A DNA stretch of 64,000 nucleotides from a virus (lineage: Duplodnaviria > Caudoviricetes). Under the pieces are notes generated by a model. The model did not search any database. It worked only from the letters and a program-made list of their open reading frames with translations, and was not told where the DNA came from. A program made the translations under genes and the position numbers. The DNA is taken from positions 2,705 through 66,704 of IMG/VR virus record IMGVR_UViG_3300033066_000811; one strand, written 5' to 3'. Of this stretch, positions 1 through 22,581 are shown piece by piece. Positions within the stretch are counted from its first letter, which is position 1. The number at the start of each line of letters is the position of its first letter.

Positions 1-1447
1 GAAAGTATTTGAACTCGTCAATAAATTCCTCATTCCATCTTCCCGGTTTCAACCAGACATTTCCACCGTTGACTTGAGTGGAGAATGCGTCTGCTCTTGC
101 TGCTTTACCAGCACCGGCGGTATGTCTGTTAGGAGTAATCTTTTTGACATTAAATCCTGCCATTTTTCGGAAGGTAATGTCTACAGATTGTTTTCCACCA
201 GAACCCCCTTCCTGTTCAATTCCGACAATAACGTGCATACCATCTTCTCTTGCAGTATTCAGCATCATTTCATCGCGTGCGTAGCTGTCAAGTTGGAAAC
301 GTATGACATCATATATGACGTATCTGTGGTCTTCATCAACACCCATAAGAACCCCAACAGTAAAATTACCTCCGCCAAGTGAACCGGCTTTATCCCAAAA
401 CCTGCAAAATCGAGTACACTTCGGAACTGTCGGTTCTCGTCTGAATTTGTCAACAAGGAACTGACCTCCTTCAAGGGGAATGGGACTCTGACCGTATTGC
501 CCTGCAAAGGCAAACTTACCGATCTTCCGTTTGATATCATCCAGAACTTTTCTAGTTAGTCGTTTAGGGTCCATCAGACCATCAACGTACTTGTCTCTCA
601 ATTCTGGAGGAAAGACAGGATAATTATTCTCAGCAGGTAGAACAAGTCTCTTTACATTGGAATTGTTCATCATCACTTCAGAAGGATCGCCAAGTCCTAA
701 TCTCTGTTGAACAAGTAAAGTCACAGATGTAGCTTTATTTGTCTTTCTACCAGAGATTTCTTCCGCAATCCATTTGTTTGCGGCAGTCAAGTCTGCAACA
801 GACCCGGCACGTTTAGGGTCAACAGGGTCATCTAGGATAATCGCGTGAGCGTGATAACCGATAACTGACCCACCAACTGATGTCGCAAAACGCAAACCCC
901 CTTTAGTTGTTACAAACAAGTGTTTAGTATTCTGATCGTCTGTCAATTCAACATCAGGAAACATTTTTTTGTATTTTTCGGATGTCACAATCAGGCGGGC
1001 ACGTCTGGACAATTCAAGTGACAGTTCATGTGAATATGAACCACAGATAAACTTGAATGAAGGAAACTTTGCCCATGCCCATCCCATAGGCATCATTGAA
1101 CAGAGAAGAGACTTACTTGTACCGGGTGAGATATTGACAAGGATATCATTATCACACGGAAGTCCTTTCATGACACGTTCTAATGCTTCCTGAACTCTGG
1201 AACAGATTTCTGACATGTGCCAGTTCCATTCCAGTTTTTCAGCAACAACAATATCCCATGCCCATTGGACATAGGATTCATAATCCTCTTCAAGAATCTT
1301 TCTCTTAAGTTTGTCAGTATTTATTGCAATTGATTGAAGTACAGATAAGTCAAATCTGGGCGGACTCTGTTCCTTTGGAGTCTCTGGTTGATGGACAACG
1401 TTGACTCTTTTCTTTTTCTTTTTGTAAGTTATCCATGAAGCAACCAT
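1..1447 (-). CDS. terL: terminase large subunit (3' end runs off the window)
   Basis: Not in the ORF track; translated by hand from ATG 1447: MVASWITYKK...ILVNISPGTSKSLL (Walker A)...AIILDDPVDP (Walker B)...RFWDKAGS (nuclease Asp)...WNEEFIDEFKYF; open to position 1; directly follows terS. Confidence 0.9.
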   Translation of the reverse strand, partial: MVASWITYKKKKKRVNVVHQPETPKEQSPPRFDLSVLQSIAINTDKLKRKILEEDYESYVQWAWDIVVAEKLEWNWHMSEICSRVQEALERVMKGLPCDNDILVNISPGTSKSLLCSMMPMGWAWAKFPSFKFICGSYSHELSLELSRRARLIVTSEKYKKMFPDVELTDDQNTKHLFVTTKGGLRFATSVGGSVIGYHAHAIILDDPVDPKRAGSVADLTAANKWIAEEISGRKTNKATSVTLLVQQRLGLGDPSEVMMNNSNVKRLVLPAENNYPVFPPELRDKYVDGLMDPKRLTRKVLDDIKRKIGKFAFAGQYGQSPIPLEGGQFLVDKFRREPTVPKCTRFCRFWDKAGSLGGGNFTVGVLMGVDEDHRYVIYDVIRFQLDSYARDEMMLNTAREDGMHVIVGIEQEGGSGGKQSVDITFRKMAGFNVKKITPNRHTAGAGKAARADAFSTQVNGGNVWLKPGRWNEEFIDEFKYF

Positions 1448-1449
1448 GA

Positions 1450-2253
1450 TTATACCCTCTCGACAATTTCAGCGTCTTGGATTGTCTCTTGTTCCTGTGC
1501 CTTCTCAAGCATCAGAAGAATTTGTTTCTTTTCAGCAGTGGGGAGTCTTTCCATGATACGGTCAAAGGAATGGGTATGGTCAACTGAACCTTTAATCTCA
1601 ACAGTCTTTTTGTTATCCCCATATCCTCTGTCAGCATTCAATGCCTTATTTGCATGAATAGTTGCTGTCACATCCCCCTTCTTAATCAGCTTGAACATAC
1701 TTGATTCGACAAAGTTCTGTTTATGCCATCGTATTTCATCACAGAGTTTTTTGAAGTCATCGTTCTTTAACCAGTTATCAAAAGTCTTCTTGGAGATACA
1801 GACCTTTCTGCAAGCTGCGGAAAGATTGAATGAAGAGACAACGTAGGCATGAAGAAACAGTTGTTGTCTTACATGAAGGGGTTTCTTTTGGAACAGACTT
1901 TCTATTCTCTGTTCCCTGTAAACACTCTTACTGTATCTGTGAATCTTGTCCCACAATCTCTGCATCGGTGGTGACAAACTATTGTACATATACTTGATGA
2001 TTGTGTCAGCCGAGTTTCCTTTGTCATCTTTCTCTCTGGCTTTCTTCAGAGCATAGGCGATTACAGGTCTATTTGCCCTCCAGTCGATCAGTGTATCTTT
2101 GGATATCTTTAGGACTTTACATATCTGTTTGTTCGTGAATCCATTTCTTGCCATGTCATAAACATCAACAGGAGTTGTATGAGGGTCATATTTCTTACCC
2201 TTCAATACAACAAACTCTTTATCTTTCCTTTTCTTTCGTCTTGTTACGGGCAT
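1450..2253 (-). CDS. terS: terminase small subunit-like protein with two HTH-like segments
   Basis: Immediately upstream of terL; HTH-like motifs (GFTNKQICKVLKISKDTLIDWR; FNLSAACRKVCISKKTFDNW); C-terminal KKTVEIKGSVDH typical of TerS. Confidence 0.7.
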   Translation of the reverse strand: MPVTRRKKRKDKEFVVLKGKKYDPHTTPVDVYDMARNGFTNKQICKVLKISKDTLIDWRANRPVIAYALKKAREKDDKGNSADTIIKYMYNSLSPPMQRLWDKIHRYSKSVYREQRIESLFQKKPLHVRQQLFLHAYVVSSFNLSAACRKVCISKKTFDNWLKNDDFKKLCDEIRWHKQNFVESSMFKLIKKGDVTATIHANKALNADRGYGDNKKTVEIKGSVDHTHSFDRIMERLPTAEKKQILLMLEKAQEQETIQDAEIVERV

Positions 2254-2421
2254 ACCTTTAATAACTCCATTGGACTATTGGACAAAAAGATTCCCATTCC
2301 GAACCATTGTATCTTCGGTGTACATTCGTGCAATAAAAAAAGGTAAGTGTGTCGTATTGTCATGTACTTTCCCCTACAAATTTAAGGAAGAAAAAATTTT
2401 GAAAAAAACGTAAACCAATGG

Positions 2422-2450
2422 TTGATACTGGCATGAAATTTTCGTATAAC
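2422..2450 (+). promoter_or_regulatory. sigma70-type promoter (TTGATA-17-TATAAC) for the topoisomerase gene
   Basis: -35 at 2422-2427, 17-nt spacer, -10 at 2445-2450, A-tract upstream. Confidence 0.6.
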
Positions 2451-2490
2451 TTTGATTCTGAAAACCTTTTACCCTAAAGGACGGTTGAAA

Positions 2491-3681
2491 ATGAATGCGA
2501 AACAGAAGAAACTTGACAAGGAAATCAGCCTTCTGTCAAAACGAAAGGAAACCCCTGAAACAAAGAAAGCGATTAACAAACTGAAAAGGGAGTATAACCA
2601 AGTTTGGAAAGACGAATTGGTCAAATATATAGGAAAGAAAATTGACGGGATGGTGGATTATCAGTCATTTCTAGAATACTGTCTGGAAAATAACATATCA
2701 CACTCTCTACCGGGAGGGTTTACAGGATATATTGACAAAGATCGCAAGTGGTACACTGTGGACGAAGATTTAGTCAATGGTGCCCCTAATTCTTTTATGT
2801 TCCCTACCGTCAAGATGAACCCATCATTTGACAAAGAATCTTCACCTTGGGTATTCGTAGCTATCAGACAAGACGGAACCCAAGGAAACTACTTTTACTG
2901 CAAATCATTTGTCAAAGAACAACGCAACAAAAAGTTTATGAACGTAAGGTCACTTCTGGATTGTATTGACAAGGTTCGTGCCAAGTGGTTGAAACTGATA
3001 AATGAGTTTGACGAGTCAAATCCAGACAGTGTTGCGGCAGTTGTACTGGAATTGCTCTTTCAGTTTTCCGCCCGTATAGGTTCCGATGGGAATGGAACAC
3101 GGGAAGGGAAAAAAACCTACGGTATTGTCACACTTCGCAGAAAGCATGTTAGGGATTGTTCCAAAGGACTCATTTTCCGTTACCTTGGAAAAGACGCAGT
3201 TAAGACAAAACATATCTGGTTCCCTTCGGATAAACAAAAACATGACATACTGTGCATAATCTCTGACTTGCTCGAAAACAAGAATCCCTCAGACTTTGTG
3301 TTCACCTATCGTTGTAAGAATGGAAAACGAAAACCAATTCAACCGAGTGTCGTAAACAGACTATTCAAGAAACTCGGGGCGGGAGATTGTACAGTTCATA
3401 AACTTCGGACATATCATGCTACGGCACTAGCGGAAAGACTGATTGAAGAAATGTTTGTCACTCGCAAAAAGTTCATGAACGAAAAGAAAGCAGCGGAAGC
3501 ATTAGTCAAGATTGCAGAAAAGGTAGGCAAACAATTAAACCATGTACGGAGGACAAAAGAGGGACGGCAGAAAGTAACAGGTATGACAGCATTGAACAAC
3601 TATATTGACACAATCTTACAGAAGAAGTTTTACGAACACTACAAAATTCCCTTCCCTAAGTATCTGGAGAAAATGCTGTAA
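2491..3681 (+). CDS. DNA topoisomerase IB
   Basis: TopIB catalytic pentad in order: SARIG (R), YLGKD (K), HKLRTYHAT (R), LNH (H), LNNYID (Y); start placed at ATG 2491, downstream of the promoter. Confidence 0.9.
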   Translation: MNAKQKKLDKEISLLSKRKETPETKKAINKLKREYNQVWKDELVKYIGKKIDGMVDYQSFLEYCLENNISHSLPGGFTGYIDKDRKWYTVDEDLVNGAPNSFMFPTVKMNPSFDKESSPWVFVAIRQDGTQGNYFYCKSFVKEQRNKKFMNVRSLLDCIDKVRAKWLKLINEFDESNPDSVAAVVLELLFQFSARIGSDGNGTREGKKTYGIVTLRRKHVRDCSKGLIFRYLGKDAVKTKHIWFPSDKQKHDILCIISDLLENKNPSDFVFTYRCKNGKRKPIQPSVVNRLFKKLGAGDCTVHKLRTYHATALAERLIEEMFVTRKKFMNEKKAAEALVKIAEKVGKQLNHVRRTKEGRQKVTGMTALNNYIDTILQKKFYEHYKIPFPKYLEKML

Positions 3682-4130
3682 TGCCATACATTGCAAAAAA
3701 GAAAAAGTGGATAGTCAGAGTAAAGAAAGTCAAAAAGGTAAAGGATAATCACAAGTTTGAAATTGGTCTGGATTTTGACAAACCTGATGGGGCAATCATT
3801 CTGGCTGCCCTATCACTCATGGGAACAGTATTAAAGAATCCTGAAAAGCTAAAGGACAAAAAAACAAGGGATGATCTTGAATGGACTCTTTCTGGTAAAC
3901 TGGAGACTCTCGGAGTTCCGGCGGGAAAGAGAAAGATAACTCAGAATGATATCGAAAAATGTATGACTAAAATATATCACATATTCACGAAAGGATACAG
4001 TAGTCCGACAAAAGTAAACAAGGCAATGTTCAACACAATCTTCTGGCCTGACTTCTCTGGAGGATTTGTGGTTAAAGCAAACGAAGTCATTGATGTTACT
4101 TCCAACAAAACCAAACTACGGAGTTATTAA
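3681..4130 (+). CDS. hypothetical protein
   Basis: 149-aa ORF translationally coupled to TopIB (TAATG overlap). Confidence 0.6.
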   Translation: MPYIAKKKKWIVRVKKVKKVKDNHKFEIGLDFDKPDGAIILAALSLMGTVLKNPEKLKDKKTRDDLEWTLSGKLETLGVPAGKRKITQNDIEKCMTKIYHIFTKGYSSPTKVNKAMFNTIFWPDFSGGFVVKANEVIDVTSNKTKLRSY

Positions 4131-4131
4131 C

Positions 4132-4917
4132 ATGCTTAGGACTATTTACCTTTCTCACAATACCGCACAAGCAGAAGTTCAGGGAGTAAAGGATATTCTG
4201 ACTGAAATGATGGAGATTATGGAATTTGGGTTGTTGGACATTCCTGCCGATGATCGTCCAGATCGTGTCAAACAACTGATGTTTGAAGTGACTAAATGTG
4301 TTCAACCTCTCTTGCAGGAATACATTGAAATAAAGACTGGAACGGGAAGGTATTTAGACACAAATTTTCTGCCCCCTTCGATCAACCATTTGTCAGATAT
4401 TCAGAAAGCGTTCGGGATTCTGATTGAAAGGCAGATTGCAAAGATTGATAACACGGACCCGGAAAAGGAAAAGAAACTGATTGACTTCGAGAAGTATAAA
4501 TTGCTGTTCACTCAGAACGTATTCTGTCTGAGTTACCTGCTGATTGAAAGACTTACTGATTTATCTGACATTCCTGAAGGGAGTTGGTTCCGATCATGTA
4601 TCGGAGGGAAGTTTATGACTATCTTTGGGAATTATCCAATGTGTCCAATATCCGTACCAAACATTCTGTTCATGGGCATCACTGGAATGTCCAACGATCA
4701 GAACGCTTTGATTGTCAGAAATAACTACGACCATCTTTTCCAGCAAGCCATCACAAAGAAAGGACATATAAAGAAAGAAAAAAATATCCAGAAACTTCGC
4801 AGAGAGATATTGCATATAGCGGGAAAAATCAATACAGATATCACGTTCCATGTTTATAACAGTGACAAAAAGGAGGTTGAGACAAAAACGGAACCTGTGA
4901 AATTATTTGAAAATTAA
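4132..4917 (+). CDS. hypothetical protein
   Basis: Long ORF; ATG 4132 follows the previous stop. Confidence 0.65.
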   Translation: MLRTIYLSHNTAQAEVQGVKDILTEMMEIMEFGLLDIPADDRPDRVKQLMFEVTKCVQPLLQEYIEIKTGTGRYLDTNFLPPSINHLSDIQKAFGILIERQIAKIDNTDPEKEKKLIDFEKYKLLFTQNVFCLSYLLIERLTDLSDIPEGSWFRSCIGGKFMTIFGNYPMCPISVPNILFMGITGMSNDQNALIVRNNYDHLFQQAITKKGHIKKEKNIQKLRREILHIAGKINTDITFHVYNSDKKEVETKTEPVKLFEN

Positions 4918-4956
4918 AACCCCTTAACTGATTGACTTCACACTTAGGAGAATGAC

Positions 4957-6063
4957 ATGCCTTTCGTTTCAACAAAGAAAGTCACAAAGAAACCCGCTAA
5001 GGCCAAAGCAAAGAAAAAGGTCTTAGTCAAGCCTAAGTTAGCTGCACCTAAGAAGAAACCCGCTAAACCTGCCAAAAAGCCAGCAAGCAAGAGGAGGAAA
5101 CCCCTCCCCTTACCCCTTTCCCGGCCTGCCAAGGGGCCGAAAAAGGGGAAACCGGGCAAGAAAGCAACCAAGGCAATAAAACCCGTTAAAACGAAGCCTA
5201 GACGTTCTGATGAGAATAAGAATGTAGTTAGTGTACAAAGTACACCAACTGTACAAACTCCCATTAAAAAGAAGAACCAACGGGAATGGTATGTCATAGC
5301 TGTTACACCGGGATACCGGGATGAGAAAGTCAGAAAAAACTTGGTCAGAGAAAGAAAGAAACTTGACAATGATGTAAGGAAACTGGTTGGAAAGATTCTT
5401 TCCCCTAAACACGAAATTGTCACTCTCGCTCCGGTTGGGAAAGATGAACGTCCTTTCATGGATGTCAAAGCACCACACGAAGAACTAGGATATGAAACTC
5501 CCAAAACTGTCAAAGTTGCAGGGAAATACAGTTTCATGAAGTATCTTCGAGTCGGAGAAGATAATCGAAAGAGAGAGGAAAAGGTCAAACGAGTTGCAAA
5601 GTTTCCCGGCTATCTGATTATTGAATGTCGTTTGACGGATGAAGTGAAGTCCTTTATTATGACAACAAAGGGAGTTCAATGTATCCTCATGAATCCCCAA
5701 AACATTGTCAGTATGAAAGACCAAGAAGCAGCGGAATTGCTTCTGGAAAAGAGAGATATTGACAATAGAAAGAAAAACCCTCCAAAGAAAGATGAACCGA
5801 AAAAGGATGACAAAACTTTCTCTTTCGATGACATAAAGAAAGAGGAAAGTAAGGAGCCTGTTCCGGTTGTGAACAACAATACTTTCGAGAAAGGGGAAAC
5901 AGTCCTTATAGAAAAGAAAGGCTATCCTTGGGATGGGTACAAGGCAATAATACAGAAAACAGACACAAGTATGGACAATGTAGTTCAGGTTGAAGTAGTA
6001 TTCATGGGATTCACTATTTCAATCATGGTTCCGGTATCTGTACTGAAGAAGGGAGTCAAGTAA
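4957..6063 (+). CDS. nusG: NusG-family transcription factor with Lys/Ala/Pro-rich N-terminal extension
   Basis: NGN motifs REWYVIAVTPGYRDEKV, KFPGYLIIEC, IMTTKGVQCIL; KOW motif FEKGETVLIEKKGYPWDGYKAII...VEVVFMG; AGGAG RBS. Confidence 0.8.
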   Translation: MPFVSTKKVTKKPAKAKAKKKVLVKPKLAAPKKKPAKPAKKPASKRRKPLPLPLSRPAKGPKKGKPGKKATKAIKPVKTKPRRSDENKNVVSVQSTPTVQTPIKKKNQREWYVIAVTPGYRDEKVRKNLVRERKKLDNDVRKLVGKILSPKHEIVTLAPVGKDERPFMDVKAPHEELGYETPKTVKVAGKYSFMKYLRVGEDNRKREEKVKRVAKFPGYLIIECRLTDEVKSFIMTTKGVQCILMNPQNIVSMKDQEAAELLLEKRDIDNRKKNPPKKDEPKKDDKTFSFDDIKKEESKEPVPVVNNNTFEKGETVLIEKKGYPWDGYKAIIQKTDTSMDNVVQVEVVFMGFTISIMVPVSVLKKGVK

Positions 6064-6650
6064 TGTCGAAAAAGGAAATAGTGAAACGGAATAAACGATT
6101 CGATGATGTAAAGGACATTGTTACCAATGCCGCAAGATTCATTCTATCTTCTGTGGATGCAGTAGCAGAAGCACCGGGAGTCGCTTTTCTAGGATTTGTC
6201 AAAGCACTGGAAGGATTCAAGAGTGACAAAGGAATGGAGTTTGAGGACTTTGCAAAGTATATGACAATATACGAAGCAAAAAAAGTTAAGAAGTTTCTGC
6301 TGGATATCAAAAAGTCCAAAAAGGTGTATTACTTCCCTGATGATGACCTTCAAAGTATTCCAAGCAACAGTGATATTGAACAGGAAAATGTCTGGCTTGA
6401 AGTCGATGAACGGTTATCTCAGGACGGAAAACATCTTTTGGACCTTATCATTCGTGAAGAGGGAATGAAAGATATTGTTGACTTGTTTGCAAAGAAAGAA
6501 ATGGTATTTGACAAATACTCACGTTCCTATGGAAGAGTCTGGAGAAGGGAATTAAAGAATCAATGTACAATATGGGAGGAATGGACTCAACAACGATACG
6601 ATGAAGCATTCAGGGAAGTCAAAAATCTTTACAGAGCAATCTCAGCATGA
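6063..6650 (+). CDS. putative sigma-factor-like protein (region 2-like)
   Basis: AFLGFVKALEGFKSDKGMEFEDFAKYM resembles sigma70 region 2 (GxxGLxKAxExFDxxKGxxFxTYA); no clear region 4. Confidence 0.45.
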   Translation: MSKKEIVKRNKRFDDVKDIVTNAARFILSSVDAVAEAPGVAFLGFVKALEGFKSDKGMEFEDFAKYMTIYEAKKVKKFLLDIKKSKKVYYFPDDDLQSIPSNSDIEQENVWLEVDERLSQDGKHLLDLIIREEGMKDIVDLFAKKEMVFDKYSRSYGRVWRRELKNQCTIWEEWTQQRYDEAFREVKNLYRAISA

Positions 6651-8035
6651 CTAAAAAAATAAAACCTTTCCCTTTCCAACTGGAAGGGATTGAAGCTATA
6701 CAGGACTTTGGAGGGGTAGCTTTACTTGCGGACGAAATGGGACTTGGAAAGTCCTGTCAAGCTATCCGATGGTGGAGAAAATATACCGATAAGAACCTTC
6801 CGATTCTGCTTATCTGTCCTGCTGGACTTAAATGGAACTGGAAGGATGAAATTAAAAAATGGGCACCAAAGTACACAGTAGTTACTTTGTCAACAAAAAC
6901 CCCTTTTGACTATAAACCAAAGAAAGAGGCTTTCTACAAAAAAGTCTATATAATTAACTATGACATTCTGAAGGCATGGTTGCCTTGGTTAAAGAAAATA
7001 CCATTCTCGACCGTAGTGATGGATGAATGTCACTTAATCAAAAACAGAAAATCACAGAGAAGCAAGGCATCAAAGTCAATCTCTTTGAAAATACCACACC
7101 GGATATTATTGTCCGGTACTCCGTTGACAAACATGCCTGCGGATTTATGGGTTGCATTGAACATTCTGGACAGAAAAGGATTCCCTAGTTTCTTTGCGTT
7201 CTGTTCTGAATACGCAAAACCAAAGAAAACCCCTTGGGGATGGACTTTCAAGGGAGCAAAGAATCTTGGCAAACTTCACAGAATTCTCAAACGTAGCTAC
7301 ATGATAAGACGGTTGAAGAAAGATGTCCTGAAAGACCTTCCAGATAAAGTACATACCGTTGTTCCTATTGACCTGCTTCCAGCACAAAGGAAAAAATACG
7401 ATAAGGCAAAGTTTGATTTTCTTCGATGGGCAAACAAGAAACAGCACACTATGTCAAAGAGCCAGTTTGAAACTGTCTCCAAGACAAAGATGATGAAGTT
7501 AAAGACGGTGGTCGGTAAACTGAAAATGAACTTTCTTGTCGAATGGATCGAAAACTTTCTGGAAGAGAACGACGGGAAACTGATTGTGTTCGGGATTCAC
7601 AAGAAAGTCCTGAAACAATTACATGACAAGTTTGAAAAGATCAGTGTGCTGGTAAACGGTGAAGTGTCCATGAAGGACAGAAAGGTACGGACGAAGCGAT
7701 TCCAGAAAAAAGAAAACTGTCGCATCTTCTTTGGGAATATCCATGCTGCTGGAACTGGTTGGAATGGTTCAATGGCGAATACGGTATTGTTTGTCGAACT
7801 GGACTGGGTTCCTGCAAACATGAACCAAGCGTCTGACAGACCTCACCGTATTGGTCAGAAAGGGAATACCAGTGTCTACTATCTTGTGGCAAGAAACACA
7901 ATCGAATACACCTTGTGTAAAATGCTACAGGACAAGCAGGGTATCTCCGATGAAGTCTTAGATGACAAAAAGAACGTAAAGAATCTTGAACTGCATAAAC
8001 AACTGTTACAGAAACTCTTGAAGGAAAAGAAATGA
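6647..8035 (+). CDS. SNF2-family helicase/ATPase
   Basis: LLADEMGLGKS, VVMDECHLIK, LLSGTP, QASDRPHRIGQ. Confidence 0.9.
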   Translation: MTKKIKPFPFQLEGIEAIQDFGGVALLADEMGLGKSCQAIRWWRKYTDKNLPILLICPAGLKWNWKDEIKKWAPKYTVVTLSTKTPFDYKPKKEAFYKKVYIINYDILKAWLPWLKKIPFSTVVMDECHLIKNRKSQRSKASKSISLKIPHRILLSGTPLTNMPADLWVALNILDRKGFPSFFAFCSEYAKPKKTPWGWTFKGAKNLGKLHRILKRSYMIRRLKKDVLKDLPDKVHTVVPIDLLPAQRKKYDKAKFDFLRWANKKQHTMSKSQFETVSKTKMMKLKTVVGKLKMNFLVEWIENFLEENDGKLIVFGIHKKVLKQLHDKFEKISVLVNGEVSMKDRKVRTKRFQKKENCRIFFGNIHAAGTGWNGSMANTVLFVELDWVPANMNQASDRPHRIGQKGNTSVYYLVARNTIEYTLCKMLQDKQGISDEVLDDKKNVKNLELHKQLLQKLLKEKK

Positions 8036-8913
8036 ATCTGACAGAGTTGTTGCAGAAGCACGGAGCAAAGATAGCTCCACAGGGGAACAAGTACAACAGA
8101 CCAAACTGGACTAACATTGTTTGTCCTTTTTGCGGTCATTTATATCCTGATAAATACCACTGCGGTATCAACAATACCTTCGGAACTGTCAATTGCTATA
8201 ACTGCGGTCCCGGAAAATCATTGAAAAGGGTATTGCAGAAAGTCAGTAGTTCTTCCTACAAAGAATTGTCAGATGATGTAGGAAAAATCAAGTGGGAGAA
8301 ATACAAGGAAACAGGTCTTAATACAGGTTTCAAATATACGGAACCTGATTTTGTGGGAGAACTGAAGAAAGGTCACATTGAGTATCTGAAATCCAGAAGA
8401 CTTAATGTGGATGAAATTGTAAAGATATGGAACCTGAAAGGAATCGGAATCGCTCCAAGATTGTCATGGAGAATCTTCATCCCTATTTACTTTCAGGGAA
8501 AGAAAGTTTCTTGGACAACACGATCAATAGGAAAAGCCGGTTATATGTCAGCTTCTAAAAGGGAAGAAACAATTGACCATAAGCAGATTCTCTATGGAGA
8601 AGACTATGCCGGAGAAACAATATGTGTCCATGAAGGACCTTTTGATGTTATTACGACTGGTCCGGGAGCGGTTGGAACTCTCGGAATTGGATATACACAG
8701 TCTCAGCTTATCAGAATTGGAAAACATCCTAATAGATATATCTGCTTTGACAATCAACCGTCTGCCATTGAACGAGCGAAAAATCTCAAAGATGAGTTGT
8801 CTATCTTTGGAGGAAAGACCAGTATTCTTATTATTGATGCGAAAGACATAAATGAAGCATCTGACAAAGAGAGACGATTGCTGAGAAGAACTGTATTCGG
8901 GAAAAAACACTAA
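8032..8913 (+). CDS. DNA primase (Zn-binding plus TOPRIM)
   Basis: CPFC...HCGI...CYNCG Zn site; VHEGPFDV; ICFDNQ. Confidence 0.8.
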   Translation: MNLTELLQKHGAKIAPQGNKYNRPNWTNIVCPFCGHLYPDKYHCGINNTFGTVNCYNCGPGKSLKRVLQKVSSSSYKELSDDVGKIKWEKYKETGLNTGFKYTEPDFVGELKKGHIEYLKSRRLNVDEIVKIWNLKGIGIAPRLSWRIFIPIYFQGKKVSWTTRSIGKAGYMSASKREETIDHKQILYGEDYAGETICVHEGPFDVITTGPGAVGTLGIGYTQSQLIRIGKHPNRYICFDNQPSAIERAKNLKDELSIFGGKTSILIIDAKDINEASDKERRLLRRTVFGKKH

Positions 8914-8925
8914 CAGGAGTATGAC

Positions 8926-9243
8926 ATGGACTATGATCCCGACCGTATTCTTATGCTCAGTGGCGGTCTTGGGGAAATGGATAAAACTCAGTTAAGAAAA
9001 TATGCTGAGATTCTTTTGGACCAAATTATAAAATATGAAACTGGAGAAAATTGTTACAGACTTGTCAAAGTTAAGCAAGGAAAAGGGCTTATAGAAGAAG
9101 AATTGACAAATGGAACAAGAGAGGCTTGTATCCAATGCGGTGAAGTCTTGAAAAAACAATATCCTGAATCTGTCATAGCTGTGATAACGGGAAGACTTGT
9201 TATTTGGCCTGAAATGAACTTTGGGGAATTGTTGCGTATTTAA
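8926..9243 (+). CDS. hypothetical protein
   Basis: 105-aa ORF with AGGAG RBS. Confidence 0.6.
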   Translation: MDYDPDRILMLSGGLGEMDKTQLRKYAEILLDQIIKYETGENCYRLVKVKQGKGLIEEELTNGTREACIQCGEVLKKQYPESVIAVITGRLVIWPEMNFGELLRI

Positions 9244-9270
9244 TTCTTGAAGAGATTCAGTCATTTTGTT

Positions 9271-9307
9271 AAAAAAGGAAGACCTGAGCAACGCACTCAG
9301 GTCTTCC
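9271..9307 (-). terminator. intrinsic terminator oriented for minus-strand (antisense) transcription
   Basis: 12-bp stem GGAAGACCTGAG (9277-9288)/CTCAGGTCTTCC (9296-9307); U6 run only on the minus strand (A6 at 9271-9276). Confidence 0.55.
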
Positions 9308-9344
9308 CTCTTACCGGAACGGGCAAGGTTACACAAGAAAGGGT

Positions 9345-9373
9345 ATGGTAATGAAAGGCAAAAAGGTCGTCAA
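9345..9373 (-). promoter_or_regulatory. putative antisense sigma70 promoter TTGACG-17-TACCAT
   Basis: Minus-strand -35 at 9373-9368 and -10 at 9350-9345, pointing at the terminator about 70 nt downstream. Confidence 0.4.
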
Positions 9374-11054
9374 GAGAAAAAAGGGTCATTTTTTCGTTTG
9401 GGCGCATTTTCTCACTAGGTTCAATTCTACTGAATGTTTGTTCATTAGCTGGCTTTTATGGAAAGCTAAACAAATGAACACATACCTAGAAAACAAGATG
9501 GAAGGTTGTCTTGACAAAAACAAGATGGAATGGACTGAAGCTGACAATGGTTGGGTGCGATGGAACACAAATTGTGTCTTAAATGATTTGACATTCTTAA
9601 ATGAAAAGAATTTGTCAAAAATAGTTCAGAAGTTTAACAAACTCAACATTTTGTCTTGGCAAACATTTGTAATTGAAAACAAAACTTTGAGAAAGATACG
9701 TCAAAAACATGTCAGAATAAATTTATCAGAATTACATAAGTACCTGACAGACAAGACGCTGAGTAAGATAAAAGAGTTTGAACAAGACAAACATACCAGA
9801 ATCAGATACACTCTTTATATCAATGATGTCATATTGGAAGACTACACATACTTCCCTGTTGACTATAGCATCATAGATGCTTTGAAGAACTCAAAAGAAA
9901 TTCTTTTGTATCACTGGATTAAAAATGAACTAAAAGTCAAAAAGATTCACAAATTTGATAAAATGTTTCCTGTCAAATACATTAAGAATGCTTTGGGGTT
10001 CAAAGTCACTACTCAAAGGAAATTATTGAAGAGTATAAGAGAAAAAGGACTTCTCAATTACAATGTTAATAAAAAACCAACTGTGACCAGTGATGGAATT
10101 AAGTTTCAAAGTAAGAGGATTATTGAATTAAAAACAAAAAATTCGCCAAAAGGGTCTCCATACAATTCGCCAAAAGGGTCTCCATACAATTCGCCAAAAG
10201 GGTCTCCATACAAACTATTACAAACTAATAATAAAAACTCTCCGGTTTCCTGCGGAAACACGGAGGGAGGTCAATCTTGGATTATTTATGTTAAGAAAAA
10301 GAAAACAGGAATAACTCCACCTGTGACTTTCTTTACTCCCCCTGCGAAGCAGATTGAGGATGATTACCACAGACTTGCAATTAAATTAAAAGATATTGTC
10401 AAAAAGAATAAAGCAAGGTACAAACAAATTTCCACCAAAAAATGGGCTAAGGAATTACGGTTATTGGGTAAGTCCCTTCGGGACGAAACCCCTGAACCGA
10501 TTTCCCACATAGAAAAAACAATTGACTGGTATGAAAAGAATTACCAGAAACAATTTACTCCGAAAGCGGACAGTGCTTCCGCGTTCCGCGAGAAGTACGG
10601 TCGTATTCGGAGACAAATGGAAAAGACCGTACATGATGACATTAAAATAACTCCACAGGCATTGTCATATACTGACCAGTTACTTCGCTATCAATGGCCG
10701 GAATTGGCCAAAGGCCAGTTGCCGAAAATTGTTCAGCAAGGTATAAATGTCGTAAATACTTTCCGAAAACTTGTATATGACTTTGTTAGAGAAGCAACAC
10801 AAGTTGACAAGTTTGGCTGGCCTGATGCTAAAGACAAACTGAGATTCTTCGCCAAGGATAAAATTCTCACTCATGTTAATATCGAAAATGTTGTCATAGA
10901 AAAACTGAAAAGAGTTTGGGAAAGGAATATCAATAACCCAAACTGGGATGGAGATTTGACATGGAATGCGATAACTAAAAATGACATTCTGGAATGTCCA
11001 TTGCAATACCAACCTCTCTGGAAAGATGTCCTTTCCAGAATCAACTACCTCTAA
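9345..11054 (+). CDS. replication initiator, lambda O-like
   Basis: N-terminal wHTH-like segments, central tandem repeat, C-terminal KWAKELRLL...IDWY...SASAFREKYGRI resembling the O-protein C-domain; upstream of the DnaB-like helicase. Confidence 0.65.
   Translation: MVMKGKKVVKRKKGHFFVWAHFLTRFNSTECLFISWLLWKAKQMNTYLENKMEGCLDKNKMEWTEADNGWVRWNTNCVLNDLTFLNEKNLSKIVQKFNKLNILSWQTFVIENKTLRKIRQKHVRINLSELHKYLTDKTLSKIKEFEQDKHTRIRYTLYINDVILEDYTYFPVDYSIIDALKNSKEILLYHWIKNELKVKKIHKFDKMFPVKYIKNALGFKVTTQRKLLKSIREKGLLNYNVNKKPTVTSDGIKFQSKRIIELKTKNSPKGSPYNSPKGSPYNSPKGSPYKLLQTNNKNSPVSCGNTEGGQSWIIYVKKKKTGITPPVTFFTPPAKQIEDDYHRLAIKLKDIVKKNKARYKQISTKKWAKELRLLGKSLRDETPEPISHIEKTIDWYEKNYQKQFTPKADSASAFREKYGRIRRQMEKTVHDDIKITPQALSYTDQLLRYQWPELAKGQLPKIVQQGINVVNTFRKLVYDFVREATQVDKFGWPDAKDKLRFFAKDKILTHVNIENVVIEKLKRVWERNINNPNWDGDLTWNAITKNDILECPLQYQPLWKDVLSRINYL
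10140..10211 (+). repeat. three exact tandem 24-bp repeats (candidate iterons)
   Basis: AATTCGCCAAAAGGGTCTCCATAC at 10140, 10164 and 10188, followed by an A-rich stretch; encodes (NSPKGSPY)x3. Confidence 0.95.
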
Positions 11055-11074
11055 AGAAAGGTCAGGGATGATGA

Positions 11075-11689
11075 ATGGAACCTTATCAGCAAAAAGCATG
11101 GGACTACTTCTATGAAAGAAGACATTTATGGATATCCAAATATAAAAAGACATTAAAACGTCTGGAGGAAAACAAGAAACTGGAATACGATGACATTGTG
11201 CAGGAAGTCTGTTATTTTGTGTACAGTTGCATAATCCATAAATATAGTCATGAAAAGGCAACTGAGTCAAACAAAAACTTGGAATGCAATCCGGTGTATC
11301 TGTTCAAGTGTGTCGGTTCCGCTTTAATGAGAATCAGACCTTTCAAGCATACGATCAGGGAATGTAAATACAAAAGTATCAATGAAAAGGTCTATGAGAA
11401 CAGAAGAGAAAGGAAGCATAGACATATTGAAGCAGAGAATGCAGAACAATTGTCTAACATCATTAAAGATATTCTGAACAAATACTGGAGAAGTTCTTCA
11501 ATGAAAAAGACAATAAAGATGTATTATCTATCTGATTTAGATATGACAATGCAGGATGTAGCAGACATCAAAGGTTGCAGGAAACAGTATGTCTGTATAA
11601 GTGTAATGCACTTTAAGAATTACCTTTTCAAACTTTACCTGACTTACAATCATCTTTACGAAAGGCATGTGATTTATGGAACTGTATGA
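11075..11689 (+). CDS. sigma-factor-like protein (ECF-like, regions 2 and 4)
   Basis: LEYDDIVQEV (region 2) and MTMQDVADIKGCRKQYV (region 4 HTH). Confidence 0.55.
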   Translation: MEPYQQKAWDYFYERRHLWISKYKKTLKRLEENKKLEYDDIVQEVCYFVYSCIIHKYSHEKATESNKNLECNPVYLFKCVGSALMRIRPFKHTIRECKYKSINEKVYENRRERKHRHIEAENAEQLSNIIKDILNKYWRSSSMKKTIKMYYLSDLDMTMQDVADIKGCRKQYVCISVMHFKNYLFKLYLTYNHLYERHVIYGTV

Positions 11690-11762
11690 AATAATACAGT
11701 CCTTTCAATTCATCCCCACTGCCTTTTCCACCGCCATTACCTTTCGACCCAAAGGACACTAA

Positions 11763-13142
11763 ATGAAAATCATCACAGGAAAAGACAACAATCATTCTCT
11801 GAAACTTGTACTGACAGGAATGATAACCAATTCTACTGTTCTCAGTCATATTGCTGAGAAGTGGGATAAAGGTCTGTTTACAGATAAGTGGTCAAACCTG
11901 ATCGGACAATGGTGTGTTGACTATTATACAAAATATGGAAAACCACCAAAGCAGCATATTGAACAGATTTATTCCAAGTGGGCAGCAAAGACCAAAGAAG
12001 ATTATGCTGAAGTGATCGGTTCGTTTCTTGGAAGAATGTCCAATGAATACGAACGATCCAAAAAGATGAACACTCAGTTTGTCTTAGATGAAGCAAGGTC
12101 TTTGTTCTCAATCGCTAATCTGAAAGACCTGAAAGATGATCTTGATGACCTGATCGAAGAGGGTAATTACAAGAAAGCCTATGAAGTTCTCCATAAACAT
12201 GACCAGATTGAATTGGGTACTGGAAGTGTTATCAATGTCCTTACTGATGATGCTTCCTTATCTTCTGCTTTGGACAATCCTAAAGACGATATTCTGTTCG
12301 AGTATGATGGAGCAGCAGGGACTTTCTTTGGTGACATATTTTCCAGAGGAAACTTTGTTGCTGTGGAAGCACCAGAAAAGACTGGAAAATCATGGTTACT
12401 TATGGACTTTGTGTTCCGTGCTGCGGAACAGGGATGTCGTGTAGCTTACTTTCAGACAGGTGATATGACGGAAAAGCAGGTAATGAGAAGAATGTCTTCA
12501 AGATTCTCAAAGAGACCTTTCAAACCTGCAATCATAAAGATTCCTACTAATATCACAATGTCTGATAAGACACCTGAGATTGATTACATTGAAAAGGAAT
12601 ATCCTACTTATCTGTCAAAAAAGAAAGCACAGAAGTATCGAGACAGAATGGTAAAGAAAGGGATGCTTGAGGATGCAATCAAACTCATGGTCTATCCTTC
12701 TACGACAATAAGTGCTGTAGGAATTGATGCTCAATTAAAGACTCTGAAAAGACAGGGATGGGTAGCTGATGTGGTTGTTGTTGACTATGCTGATATCCTT
12801 GCCCCTGTGACTGGAACAGGGGATGATCGAAGTAAAATCAATGAAACTTGGAGTCGATTAAGAACAATATCACATGACACTCTTTTGATTACAGCTACCC
12901 AGGTCAATCGTGGAGCATACAAGGCCGATGTATTGACTAAGGATCATACGGCAGACGATAAAAGAAAGATGGCTCACGTGACATGTATGATCGGTATTAA
13001 CCAGAAAGAAGAAGAAAAGAAACAGGGAGTTATGAGACTTAATTATGTAGCTCTCCGCGAAGGTGAGTTTCTGGAAACACAATGTGTCTATGTAGCTGGC
13101 TGTTTGGGTATTGCAAATCCTATCATGCTTTCCTCTTTTTAA
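11763..13142 (+). CDS. DnaB-like replicative helicase
   Basis: APEKTGKS Walker A, VVVVDYADIL, TATQVNR, LNYVALREG. Confidence 0.85.
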   Translation: MKIITGKDNNHSLKLVLTGMITNSTVLSHIAEKWDKGLFTDKWSNLIGQWCVDYYTKYGKPPKQHIEQIYSKWAAKTKEDYAEVIGSFLGRMSNEYERSKKMNTQFVLDEARSLFSIANLKDLKDDLDDLIEEGNYKKAYEVLHKHDQIELGTGSVINVLTDDASLSSALDNPKDDILFEYDGAAGTFFGDIFSRGNFVAVEAPEKTGKSWLLMDFVFRAAEQGCRVAYFQTGDMTEKQVMRRMSSRFSKRPFKPAIIKIPTNITMSDKTPEIDYIEKEYPTYLSKKKAQKYRDRMVKKGMLEDAIKLMVYPSTTISAVGIDAQLKTLKRQGWVADVVVVDYADILAPVTGTGDDRSKINETWSRLRTISHDTLLITATQVNRGAYKADVLTKDHTADDKRKMAHVTCMIGINQKEEEKKQGVMRLNYVALREGEFLETQCVYVAGCLGIANPIMLSSF

Positions 13143-13151
13143 GGACATATA

Positions 13152-13505
13152 ATGACGGTTGAAGTCAATATACTCGATGTAATCAGAACCAAACGGAAGG
13201 AACTTAACTTGAGTCTTTCCAAGCTGGCAAAAAAAGTAGGTTGTTCTACGACCTATGTTTCCGCAGTGATGAAGAAACAAAAGACTGCTTCTGACGACTT
13301 TCTTATTAGGACTCTCTATGCTCTCGGATACGGTCCTTCTGATATTTTTTTATGGTACAGGGACTACTTCTGGAAAAAATCTTCGAAAAAAATCACGATA
13401 GATGTTTCCTGTGTTCCAGACGTAAACAAGCAGAATGTCCTGTATTCTCTAGTGGAAAGTGTGATAGAGAAAGAGAAGACCAAGTCCCTCCTGAAAAAAT
13501 CTTGA
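13152..13505 (+). CDS. XRE-family HTH regulator
   Basis: IRTKRKELNLSLSKLAKKVGCSTTYVSAV. Confidence 0.75.
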   Translation: MTVEVNILDVIRTKRKELNLSLSKLAKKVGCSTTYVSAVMKKQKTASDDFLIRTLYALGYGPSDIFLWYRDYFWKKSSKKITIDVSCVPDVNKQNVLYSLVESVIEKEKTKSLLKKS

Positions 13506-13537
13506 TAAATTTTCAGAATTCTGGATTGAAAACTTAG

Positions 13538-13553
13538 GTCAGATGATATTATA
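13538..13553 (+). promoter_or_regulatory. variant of phage motif GTCAA(G/A)GAACATTATA
   Basis: GTCAGATGATATTATA preceded by AAAACTT, in an intergenic gap. Confidence 0.4.
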
Positions 13554-13639
13554 GATTAGAGACACCCATCCCACCGGGTTTCATCAGATACAGTGATATC
13601 TGACCCGTTTACAGGGTTGTCTGATTTTGGAGAAATATC

Positions 13640-14272
13640 ATGTTGAAGGTCAAAAAGGTTCGTCTGGTGAAGTTGCTGAAGGCTGCCGGAGTCAAAGGCG
13701 TTGATGACATGAACGAAAAGAAACTGGCAAAGGCAATCAACGCTCTCCCGAAAGTCATTGCTGACGAAGACAATGAACTGAATGAGAAGCAACTTGAACT
13801 TGCCAAGGCAATCATGAAAGCCGACAAAAAAGGCAAGTGGACAATTGTGGATGAAGAAGCAGAAGCAGAAGAAAAGGTCAAGGCAAAAAGCAAGAGCAAA
13901 CATACCGCTCCTGACATTGGTTCCCCCCGTGGCAAGTTCGGGATCATTGATTATGTCAAAGAAATGCTCCAGAACGCCAGCAAGAAAAAGCCTCTTCTGT
14001 TCACGGACGCATTAAAAGCAGTAGTCAAGAAGTTTGGTCCAAAGACGGAAGCTGATCGCCCTCTTCCGGGTCTGAAGACGACTGTTTACTCTCAATTGAT
14101 GGTCCAACTGAAACAAAAAGGTTGGGATGTTCAACGTGTGACAGACGAAGAACTTGGAAACGCTTTCTACATCGGCAAGGGCGGAGTTCCTTCCGAGTCA
14201 AAGGAAAAGACCAAAACAAAAGGAAAGAGCAAGGAAAAAGAAGTCGTAAAGAAAAAGAAGAAAGCCGCGTAA
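13640..14272 (+). CDS. Lys-rich hypothetical protein with a possible winged-helix domain
   Basis: GIIDYVKEMLQNASKKKPL...KTTVYSQL; basic tail; GGAG RBS. Confidence 0.6.
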   Translation: MLKVKKVRLVKLLKAAGVKGVDDMNEKKLAKAINALPKVIADEDNELNEKQLELAKAIMKADKKGKWTIVDEEAEAEEKVKAKSKSKHTAPDIGSPRGKFGIIDYVKEMLQNASKKKPLLFTDALKAVVKKFGPKTEADRPLPGLKTTVYSQLMVQLKQKGWDVQRVTDEELGNAFYIGKGGVPSESKEKTKTKGKSKEKEVVKKKKKAA

Positions 14273-15519: not shown

Positions 15520-15584
15520 AAAGATTGATTCCCTTTGAAAACCAAGGAAGAAAAATTTTCAAAAAATCTTTCTGAAAAACTTGA

Positions 15585-15600
15585 GTCAAGGAACATTATA
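15585..15600 (+). promoter_or_regulatory. phage motif GTCAAGGAACATTATA
   Basis: Identical 16-mer at 22539; variants at 57271 and 13538. Confidence 0.65.
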
Positions 15601-15759
15601 TATTGTTCAGGTTTATGGTACTGTTTCCCCTTGCTATGAGAACAGCTAAAAAACAGTAAAACCTTTCTCCATATTTCACCAGTATCTATCATTAGGGAAA
15701 GGAAAGGTGTCCAATGTAAGACATATAACACGATCTTATCCAGTATCAGACTTTCAAAA

Positions 15760-22519: not shown

Positions 22520-22538
22520 TTTTTCAGAAAAAACTTCT

Positions 22539-22554
22539 GTCAAGGAACATTATA
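22539..22554 (+). promoter_or_regulatory. phage motif GTCAAGGAACATTATA
   Basis: Identical to 15585-15600; intergenic, 27 nt before ATG 22582. Confidence 0.65.
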
Positions 22555-22581
22555 TATAGTACCTAGAATGAAGGTGAAGAT

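What the first reader, a model, noticed from the sequence alone, without database searches (positions are those of the whole stretch)
4957..6063. NusG paralog fused to a histone-H1-like basic tail
Seen: about 90 N-terminal residues of K/A/P repeats (KKPAKAKAKKK, KKPAKPAKKPASK) precede recognisable NGN and KOW domains; the NGN has an insertion and a charged linker precedes KOW. Known: NusG paralogs (RfaH, LoaP, UpxY) act as operon-specific antiterminators, and K/A/P tails bind or condense DNA. Inference: a phage processivity factor for its two very long operons that also tethers to or compacts nucleic acid. I do not know this fusion from described phages.
Basis: partly seen in the sequence, partly recalled or inferred. 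Interest (0 to 1): 0.72.

Follow-up and report, generated by a model that had tools for sequence, protein, structure and literature searches.

The report
Phage NusG homologue with basic tail

Summary
ORF 4957-6063 (+, 368 aa) has one possible start, an ATG behind AGGAG. It encodes:
- a disordered tail of about 110 residues (30% K, 15% P, 10% A, net charge +36);
- an NGN domain (Pfam NusG 37.5 bits, cut-off 22.2) split by a roughly 45-residue insertion at the hairpin where Thermotoga and Aquifex NusG carry domain II;
- a charged 38-residue linker;
- a beta-barrel KOW.

AlphaFold and Foldseek agree with this layout. The family profile matches full-length bacterial NusG (E 1e-34 to 1e-28) far better than RfaH (about 1e-3). 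The protein reaches no NusG, RfaH or LoaP equivalog cut-off.

About 21 relatives exist, all metagenomic. Every context I inspected looks like phage. Fifteen carry a basic N-terminal tail (net +14 to +42) conserved in composition, not sequence. A sigma-70 region-2-like gene lies just downstream in four lineages.

Isolated phages gave no homologue, and six phage NusG-like models in BFVD are 241 aa or shorter. Planctomycetota housekeeping NusG, the only cellular hits, have acidic tails or none.

Best reading: a host-RNAP elongation or antitermination factor whose tail grips nucleic acid at the upstream fork. This function is inferred, not tested. It is a new variant of a known kind. Earlier notes of this scan describe similar phage NusG paralogs on other DNA.

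The parts
4132..4917 (+). Conserved upstream gene of unknown function (about 261 aa), first gene of the cassette unknown / NusG-like / sigma-like
   Evidence: No Pfam or PHROG hit. It is weakly homologous (BLASTP E 2e-5) to the gene at the same position in locus L004. The position is syntenic in L002, L004 and L005.
4946..4950 (+). Shine-Dalgarno AGGAG, 6 nt before the ATG at 4957
   Evidence: Read directly from the sequence. 32 of 50 genes in the window have an SD-like motif upstream.
4957..5286 (+). Disordered basic K/P/A tail, residues 1-110
   Evidence: Net charge +36 with K 30%, P 15%, A 10%. AF2 pLDDT is about 50 with no secondary structure. It holds the most basic stretch in the window. 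Basic tails recur in 15 relatives.
5287..5433 (+). NGN domain, first half (residues 111-159; begins with the WYV motif)
   Evidence: AF2 pLDDT 88-97. TIGR00922 aligns residues 111-271. W111 and Y112 are invariant in the alignment with E. coli NusG.
5434..5571 (+). Insertion in the NGN beta-hairpin, residues 160-205, predicted disordered here
   Evidence: It forms a gap against E. coli NusG. It lies at the position where T. maritima NusG carries its large inserted domain (alignment). Its length and content vary among relatives: a CxC...CxC motif in P0002, P0003 and P0005, and a longer beta-rich insert in P0013, P0016, P0017, P0019 and P0023.
5572..5775 (+). NGN domain, second half (residues 206-273, with the invariant FPGY motif at 216-219)
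   Evidence: Best Pfam PF02357 stretch is 205-261. AF2 pLDDT is 84-96. P217, G218 and Y219 are invariant in 22 sequences.
5776..5889 (+). Charged K/E/D-rich flexible linker, residues 274-311
   Evidence: AF2 pLDDT is about 50-55. It is much longer than the E. coli NusG linker.
5890..6063 (+). KOW domain (residues 312-368) and TAA stop
   Evidence: AF2 predicts five beta strands with pLDDT of about 76-92 per 10-residue block. The family profile hits KOW-only NusG chains: 1nz9 at 1.2e-9 and 2kvq at 1e-6. PHROG 6386 aligns residues 204-365.
6063..6650 (+). Sigma-70 region-2-like gene (195 aa); its ATG overlaps the NusG-like stop codon by one base (TAATG)
   Evidence: The overlap was read. Pfam Sigma70_r2 scores 14.8 bits here but 28 bits (cut-off 24) in the homologues of L003 and L004, which match the window protein at BLASTP E 1e-7. 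With a five-sequence profile, 12 of the 14 best PDB matches are sigma factors, the best at E 0.007. The AF2 model was too poor to use (pLDDT 43).

Best explanation
[quoted passage not shown] The NGN domain most likely binds the beta' clamp helices and beta gate loop of elongating polymerase at the upstream fork of the transcription bubble. There it takes the place of host NusG and makes transcription of the long phage gene trains more processive, with less backtracking and less termination. The 110-residue basic disordered tail leaves the NGN at its N-terminal strand, the edge that faces the upstream fork and duplex DNA in solved NusG and RfaH complexes. I propose that the tail binds the phosphate backbone of that DNA, or possibly nascent RNA, without sequence specificity. 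That would add the stable nucleic-acid contact that cellular NusG lacks, and so raise affinity and residence time on the elongation complex. The KOW domain, on an unusually long charged linker, stays free for a partner such as the ribosome or a termination factor. The gene is translationally coupled to a sigma-like gene, so the two probably form one takeover module: the sigma directs initiation at phage promoters and the NusG-like factor takes over the same clamp-helix site during elongation. Shown here: the domain architecture, the disorder and charge of the tail, its recurrence in relatives, and the gene neighbourhood. Inferred: RNAP binding, nucleic-acid binding by the tail, antitermination, and the hand-over from sigma.
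For: The NGN and KOW domains are supported by Pfam, PHROG 6386 'transcription antiterminator', a family profile against PDB sequences (full-length NusG at E 9e-34 to 1e-28), AlphaFold2 and Foldseek. The hallmark WY and FPGY motifs are invariant across 22 sequences. The KOW is predicted as a beta-barrel, as in NusG, and not as the alpha-hairpin of autoinhibited RfaH. Basic tails occur in 15 relatives, with composition conserved and sequence not conserved, which fits an electrostatic role for a disordered region. Every context I inspected is a phage early or replication arm running TerL/TerS, then the NusG-like gene, then an SNF2 helicase. A sigma-like gene lies directly or closely downstream in four divergent lineages. 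[quoted passage not shown] NusG and RfaH stabilise upstream duplex pairing, yet make no stable contact with that duplex apart from RfaH R11, which touches the non-template backbone at position -11. NusG is also readily lost from elongation complexes (bioRxiv 10.1101/324400, read). Phage Xp10 p7 gains processivity by stabilising the upstream duplex (PMC4513864, abstract).
Against: Nothing was tested biochemically and the host is unknown. The protein scores far below the cut-offs of all curated NusG, RfaH and LoaP models, so its function cannot be transferred by equivalence. NusG proteins of some bacteria promote pausing or termination instead of suppressing them, so the sign of the effect is open. 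The consensus scan found no more terminator-like sites in 1400-14000 than in shuffled sequence, so nothing shows that there are terminators to read through. Five to six family members lack the tail, so the tail is not essential to the core function. The E. coli KOW residues F165 and R167 align to M350 and F352, so the KOW partners may differ from those in E. coli.
Confidence: 0.55

Rival explanations
1. The protein is mainly a decoy that shields phage transcripts from Rho. It occupies the single NusG site on RNAP, and its diverged KOW does not recruit Rho, so phage transcripts escape Rho-dependent silencing in the way RfaH-controlled operons do. In this reading the tail only raises affinity or local concentration on DNA.
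For: NGN sites are mutually exclusive, and RfaH excludes NusG in this way (bioRxiv 10.1101/324400; PMC7819879). The KOW residues that align with E. coli F165 and R167 are changed to M and F. Planctomycetota-type NusG proteins are the nearest cellular relatives found.
Against: It is not known whether the host uses NusG-stimulated Rho termination. Most relatives keep the R that aligns with R167. This reading overlaps with the best explanation and does not replace it.
Confidence: 0.18
2. The protein is a nucleoid or compartment organiser. The H1-like tail coats or condenses phage or host DNA, or drives condensates with nucleic acid, and the NGN-KOW part recruits RNAP into that compartment. The main role would then be spatial, not control of elongation.
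For: The tail has net charge +36 and K/A/P composition like H1 C-terminal tails and bacterial H1-like tails.
Against: There is only one such tail in the window. Tail-less family members exist in similar-looking phage contexts. A fusion that places the tail exactly at the DNA-facing N-terminus of the NGN argues for action within the elongation complex.
Confidence: 0.1
3. The protein couples transcription to translation, or loads ribosomes. The KOW on its long linker would bind ribosomal protein S10, and the basic tail would bind rRNA or mRNA, tying ribosomes to RNAP on phage messages as proposed for RfaH.
For: The protein has an intact beta-barrel KOW on a 38-residue linker. A hydrophobic residue is kept at the position that aligns with E. 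coli F165. RfaH is proposed to act as an RNAP-tethered translation factor (PMC7819879).
Against: Most phage genes here have their own SD motif (32 of 50), so no special ribosome loading seems to be needed. Nothing points to rRNA binding by the tail.
Confidence: 0.07
4. The protein shuts off or pauses host transcription. It would bind host elongation complexes and, with its DNA-binding tail, stall or terminate them, as the pro-pausing NusG proteins of Bacillus and Mycobacterium do. RNAP would then be freed for promoters served by the phage sigma.
For: NusG can promote pausing or termination in some phyla (PMC8060035 and PMC12288461, abstracts). The gene is paired with a sigma-like gene.
Against: No feature distinguishes host from phage templates. 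The gene sits at the head of a 30-kb phage gene train that would itself be stalled.
Confidence: 0.06
5. The tail is a neutral low-complexity expansion with no function of its own.
For: The tail sequence is not conserved, and five to six family members lack a tail.
Against: Fifteen lineages of differing base composition keep the same position, strong positive charge (+14 to +42) and near absence of acidic and aromatic residues. The sampled Planctomycetota NusG proteins have acidic tails or none at this position, so composition here is not free to drift.
Confidence: 0.04

Closest known systems
Bacterial housekeeping NusG (for example T. maritima 2xhc/2lq8, E. coli 2jvv)
   Same: It has the same NGN + KOW architecture. 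The family profile aligns end to end at E 9e-34 to 1e-28. The WY and FPGY motifs are kept, and the KOW is predicted as a beta-barrel. The insertion lies at the same hairpin as domain II of Thermotoga and Aquifex NusG.
   Different: It shares 20% identity with E. coli NusG. TIGR00922 scores 35 bits against a cut-off of 135.7. The context is a phage early arm, not secE-nusG-rplKA. It has a 110-residue basic tail, a 38-residue charged linker, and M350 and F352 at the positions of F165 and R167.
Specialised NusG paralogs: RfaH, LoaP, UpxY
   Same: It is a second NusG-family gene carried by a horizontally moving element and placed at the head of long gene trains. It is expected to exclude host NusG.
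   Different: Sequence similarity is much weaker: RfaH chains score E 5e-4 to 2.5e-3, RfaH and LoaP models score 24 bits against cut-offs of 125-145, and no UpxY model hit was listed. No alpha-helical autoinhibited C-terminal domain is predicted. I identified no ops-like loading site.
Phage NusG-like proteins known only from annotation (PHROG 6386; BFVD models such as A0A6J5PZH6 'NusG transcription antiterminator')
   Same: These are phage-encoded NGN+KOW proteins. PHROG 6386 matches at E 2.3e-7 and Foldseek against BFVD gives E 1e-9 to 2e-5.
   Different: They are 146-241 aa, and the PHROG profile is 179 positions long, so they have no long tail. None has been characterised as far as my literature searches show. 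BLAST finds no similarity in 50,697 phage records.
Histone H1 C-terminal domain and bacterial H1-like K/A/P tails
   Same: Composition (K+P+A of about 55%, almost no acidic or aromatic residues), predicted disorder and high positive charge.
   Different: No linker-histone globular domain and no Pfam hit on the tail. Alanine content is lower than I recall for H1 (my own knowledge, not checked here). The resemblance is compositional and is not evidence of homology.
Eukaryotic Spt5, and actinobacterial or planctomycetal NusG, with an acidic N-terminal region
   Same: A long disordered, charged extension attached at the N-terminus of the NGN. Spt5's acidic N-terminal region is described in PMC7819879. 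Planctomycetota NusG tails have net charge -7 to -21.
   Different: The charge is the opposite sign here (+36), which implies direct nucleic-acid binding and not binding of basic proteins or DNA mimicry.

Membership tests
NusG/Spt5 superfamily | N-terminal NGN domain (Pfam PF02357 at or above the gathering score) | tested here: met
   37.5 bits against a cut-off of 22.2. Foldseek TM (target-normalised) is 0.69-0.76 at rmsd 3.6-4.3 A to NGN domains in 8ehq, 8e74 and 8eos.
NusG/Spt5 superfamily | C-terminal KOW beta-barrel | tested here: met
   The family profile hits KOW-only chains 1nz9 (1.2e-9), 2mi6 (2.3e-8) and 2kvq (1e-6). AF2 predicts five strands with pLDDT of about 76-92 per 10-residue block. 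Pfam PF00467 on its own gave no hit.
NusG/Spt5 superfamily | Binds the RNAP clamp helices on elongation complexes | not testable with these tools
   The host and its RNAP are unknown. I ran no complex prediction, because a stand-in polymerase from another host would say little.
Housekeeping NusG (NCBIfam TIGR00922 equivalog) | Score at or above the equivalog cut-off | tested here: not met
   35.1 bits against 135.7.
Housekeeping NusG (NCBIfam TIGR00922 equivalog) | secE-nusG-rplK-rplA gene context | tested here: not met
   The neighbours are a TopIB gene, two unknown genes, a sigma-like gene, an SNF2 helicase and a primase. Planctomycetota NusG loci do show the ribosomal-protein context.
RfaH (TIGR01955) | Score at or above the equivalog cut-off | tested here: not met
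   23.6 bits against 144.5. RfaH chains score only E 5e-4 to 2.5e-3 with the family profile.
RfaH (TIGR01955) | Autoinhibited alpha-helical C-terminal domain packed on the NGN | tested here: not met
   AF2 predicts an all-beta KOW separated from the NGN by a disordered 38-residue linker. This is a prediction only.
RfaH (TIGR01955) | ops-type loading site in the leaders of target operons | tested here: inconclusive
   CCATCCCA is enriched (9 copies against 1.7 expected), with three copies just upstream of late genes. Nothing links this motif to the protein.
LoaP (NF033641) | Score at or above the cut-off | tested here: not met
   24.3 bits against 125.
UpxY (Bacteroides capsule-operon NusG paralogs) | Match to a curated UpxY model | tested here: not met
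   No UpxY model appeared among the NCBIfam hits at E up to 10. This assumes that NCBIfam release 20 holds such a model, which I did not verify.
PHROG 6386 (phage 'transcription antiterminator') | Profile match over the family's length | tested here: inconclusive
   E 2.3e-7 (31.7 bits), covering profile positions 49-178 of 179. The first third of the profile is unmatched, and PHROGs has no curated cut-off.
Linker histone H1 | Winged-helix globular domain | tested here: not met
   No Pfam hit apart from NusG at E up to 10, other than a chance BSMAP match. The tail is predicted to have no secondary structure.
Linker histone H1 | K/A/P-dominated disordered basic tail | tested here: met
   K 30%, P 15%, A 10%, D+E 3%, net +36 over 110 residues. 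This is a likeness in composition, not evidence of membership.

The most novel reading that the evidence does not exclude
The basic tail is a DNA-gripping module that turns NusG into a self-tethering elongation clamp which cannot be displaced by host NusG. It would have evolved by inverting the charge of the acidic N-terminal tail found on NusG of Planctomycetota-type hosts. It would work as one unit with the translationally coupled phage sigma factor: the sigma and the NGN use the same clamp-helix site in succession, so polymerases started at phage promoters are converted at once into phage-specific, termination-resistant complexes.
Probability: 0.22. Interest if true: 0.7.

Novelty: new variant of a known kind. 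Interest (0 to 1): 0.5.

Why it matters
NusG/Spt5 is described as the only transcription regulator family conserved in all life (PMC7819879). How its accessory regions tune polymerase is an active question. Cellular NusG makes no stable contact with the upstream DNA duplex and dissociates easily (bioRxiv 10.1101/324400). A natural variant with a +36 tail at exactly that edge is a ready-made test of whether extra DNA contacts raise processivity and exclude competing factors. It also adds to signs that phages carry their own NusG paralogs, here paired with a sigma-like factor. That would be a route to antitermination distinct from lambda N and Q, P7 or put RNA. The practical value is modest unless the host is found.

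Tried and rejected
- **Isolated phages:** tblastn of the protein and megablast of 25 kb against 50,697 phage records gave no match.
- **Pattern scans with the single protein:** IMG/VR and 185,579 species genomes gave no confirmed relative.
- **Narrower alignment A5:** it found one IMG/VR locus (L009, the same protein as P0010 but for one residue). In genomes it found only four Planctomycetota housekeeping NusG genes.
- **Prophage copy in Planctomycetota:** 294 of 301 genomes gave a match at E 1e-5 or better, nearly all a single one (nine genomes had two or three). The best score was 153 bits, and every locus I inspected was an ordinary NusG. No prophage copy was evident. The host therefore stays unknown; Planctomycetota is a weak lead. 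The TerL protein points instead to phages of Flavobacteriia at 33-34% identity. SD use upstream of 32 of 50 genes, by my own knowledge of Bacteroidota, argues against such a host.
- **Sigma-like neighbour:** the word-based homologue search returned only the query itself. Its AF2 model had pLDDT 43, so I did not send it to a fold search.
- **Promoter and terminator scan of 1400-14000:** counts were not above shuffled sequence, so it says nothing about read-through.
- **Conserved short motif in the tails:** a GxxLPxGRNAGKxxKSG-like box is shared only by P0004, P0006 and P0007. The window's PLPLSRPAKGPKKG resembles it only loosely, so I did not count it.
- **Minus-strand ORFs 4944-5588 and 5110-5478:** I regard these as by-products of the low-complexity coding strand, because it is the + frame that has homologues and a predicted fold.

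Full report
**What is there.** The window is 64 kb of a 66.7-kb IMG/VR virus record estimated 87% complete. ORF 4957..6063 on the + strand encodes 368 residues. AGGAG at 4946-4950 lies 6 nt before the ATG. No other in-frame start codon exists before the NGN domain begins at 5287, so the basic tail is part of any product that contains the NGN.

The first 110 residues are 30% K, 15% P and 10% A, with only 3% D+E, and have net charge +36. They contain the most basic 30-residue stretch of any reading frame in the window.

**Domains.**
- Pfam finds NusG NGN at 37.5 bits, above the 22.2 cut-off.
- PHROG 6386 ('transcription antiterminator') matches residues 204-365 at E 2.3e-7.
- The NCBIfam models for NusG, mycoplasma NusG, LoaP and RfaH all match, but at 17-35 bits against cut-offs of 124-150. 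The protein therefore belongs to the superfamily and to none of the curated subfamilies.
- A 22-sequence family alignment (A1) used as a profile matches full-length solved NusG proteins over both domains: T. maritima 8.9e-34, E. coli about 1e-28, M. tuberculosis 5e-28. It matches KOW-only chains at 1e-9 to 1e-6. RfaH reaches only 5e-4 to 2.5e-3.
- AlphaFold2 on that alignment gives pLDDT above 90 for the NGN (110-159 and 206-273) and high confidence (about 76-92 per 10-residue block) for an all-beta KOW (312-366). It gives about 50 for the tail (1-105), the insertion (160-205) and the charged linker (274-311).
- Foldseek puts Aquifex, E. coli, Thermotoga and M. tuberculosis NusG on top.
- Aligned with E. 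coli NusG (20% identity), the insertion falls in the beta-hairpin before the FPGY motif. This is the site where Thermotoga NusG carries its extra domain. E. coli F165 and R167 align with M350 and F352.

**Relatives.** The exhaustive HMMER search of 1.84 billion representatives found only 22 proteins at E up to 1e-3. The word-indexed search of 5.8 billion found two besides the query.
- All are metagenomic and none carries a useful name.
- Fifteen have an N-terminal tail of 57-185 residues with net charge +14 to +42 and almost no acidic or aromatic residues.
- The tails align poorly, so composition is conserved and sequence is not.
- Five to six members are short and tail-less. Their small contigs show phage-like neighbours of small, overlapping unknown genes, not ribosomal-protein genes.
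- One hit (P0022) has an acidic tail.
- Where context is available it is a phage arm like the window's: terminase genes on the other strand, then an early or replication arm holding the NusG-like gene and, a little further on, an SNF2 helicase.

**Neighbour.** The next gene (6063-6650) starts on the last base of the NusG-like stop codon (TAATG).
- Its homologues in L003 and L004 pass the Pfam Sigma70_r2 cut-off (28 against 24 bits). The window protein scores 14.8 bits and matches them at BLASTP E 1e-7.
- Similar sub-threshold region-2 signals occur in genes one or a few genes downstream of the NusG-like gene in L007 and L009.
- With a five-sequence profile, 12 of the 14 best PDB matches are sigma factors, the best at E 0.007.
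- I therefore call it sigma-like with moderate confidence. Its AF2 model was unusable.
- The gene upstream (4132-4917) is also syntenic and weakly conserved. The unit looks like a three-gene cassette.

**Comparison with cells and known phages.**
- No homologue was found in 50,697 isolated-phage records.
- BFVD holds six phage NGN+KOW models, some annotated NusG or RfaH. All are 146-241 aa, too short for a long tail.
- A pattern scan of one genome for each of 185,579 species confirmed only four loci. All are housekeeping NusG genes of Planctomycetota, and the two I read in full lie between a membrane-protein gene and the L11 and L1 genes.
- Across the Planctomycetota loci fetched, the N-terminal extension is absent or acidic, with net charge -7 to -21. 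The few apparent positive values come from over-long ORF calls that have an internal start near the NGN.
- 294 of 301 Planctomycetota genomes gave a match, the best at 153 bits. Nearly all gave a single match, and none was evidently a prophage copy.
- In this sampling, a basic tail on NusG is a property of the phage family.
- The host remains unknown. Planctomycetota is a weak lead, because the profile scores overlap those of Thermotoga NusG. TerL points weakly elsewhere.

**Mechanism.** The literature places NusG-family NGN domains at the upstream fork junction (PMC5100998). The cryo-EM study of NusG and RfaH complexes reports three things (bioRxiv 10.1101/324400):
- Both factors stabilise pairing of the upstream duplex.
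- Neither makes stable contacts with that duplex apart from RfaH R11, a residue at the N-terminal edge of the NGN that touches the non-template backbone at position -11.
- NusG is readily lost from complexes.

A +36 disordered arm attached to that same N-terminal edge is therefore well placed to hold the upstream DNA. This would raise affinity and reinforce the anti-backtracking effect. Phage Xp10 p7 offers an independent precedent for processivity gained by stabilising the upstream duplex (PMC4513864).

The predicted beta-barrel KOW and long linker argue against RfaH-type autoinhibition. Loading may therefore be general, or may follow the phage sigma. From established knowledge, sigma uses the same clamp-helix surface; I did not test this here.

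All of this is inference. The sign of the effect (anti-pausing or pro-pausing), the ligand of the tail (DNA or RNA) and the KOW partner are open. The rival explanations are listed with their odds.

**Novelty and score.** Phage NusG-like genes exist in annotation resources but I found no study of one. I also found no report of a NusG with a lysine-rich tail.

Earlier AI notes of this scan describe, on unrelated DNA, a Methylobacterium phage NusG paralog with a basic arm and a gut-phage NusG-like gene always followed by a sigma-4-type gene. These agree with the present reading, but they are unchecked and share no sequence words with this protein.

I rate this a new variant of a known kind with moderate interest. 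The architecture and its recurrence are solid. The function is plausible and readily testable.

Noticed in passing
window 6063-6650 (+): A sigma-70 region-2-like gene of 195 aa overlaps the NusG-like stop codon by one base. Homologous sigma-like genes follow the NusG-like gene in loci L003, L004, L007 and L009. It is probably a phage sigma factor with an unknown promoter.
   Followed up: partly
window 4132-4917 (+): An unknown gene of about 261 aa lies directly upstream. It is syntenic and weakly conserved (E 2e-5) in relatives, and has no Pfam or PHROG family. It may be the third member of the transcription cassette.
   Followed up: partly
window 42563, 45131, 51718 (-) and six other sites: CCATCCCA occurs 9 times against 1.7 expected (0 of 100 shuffles reach 9). 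Three minus-strand copies lie just upstream of late genes. It is a candidate late promoter or regulatory box.
   Followed up: partly
window 15575-15606 and 22529-22560 (+); also 2369-2406 and 15529-15566: Two intergenic direct repeats lie on the replication arm: one of 32 nt at 91% identity and one of 38 nt at 76%. One copy of the second sits just upstream of the TopIB gene. They are candidate phage-specific promoters or operators.
   Followed up: no
window 2452-3681 (+): A type IB topoisomerase (Pfam Topoisom_I, 1e-21). Its best phage relatives are jumbo phages (Achromobacter Motura, Ralstonia phiRSL1, Burkholderia BCSR5) at about 41% identity, which is unusual for a 67-kb phage.
   Followed up: partly
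   Followed up: no
loci L010, L011, L012, L013, L025, L029 (Planctomycetota NusG genes): Housekeeping NusG of several Planctomycetota carries an acidic, E/A/P-rich N-terminal extension of 36-128 residues (net -7 to -21). This is the opposite charge to the phage tail.
   Followed up: partly
proteins P0002, P0003, P0005 (loci L002-L005): In these close relatives the NGN insertion carries two CxC pairs (CDCPK ... CNCPK), which suggests a small zinc-binding module. The window protein's insertion has no cysteines.
   Followed up: no
window 4944-5588 and 5110-5478 (-): Long antisense ORFs (214 and 122 aa) lie opposite the tail-coding region. They are most likely by-products of the low-complexity sequence and not genes.
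   Followed up: no
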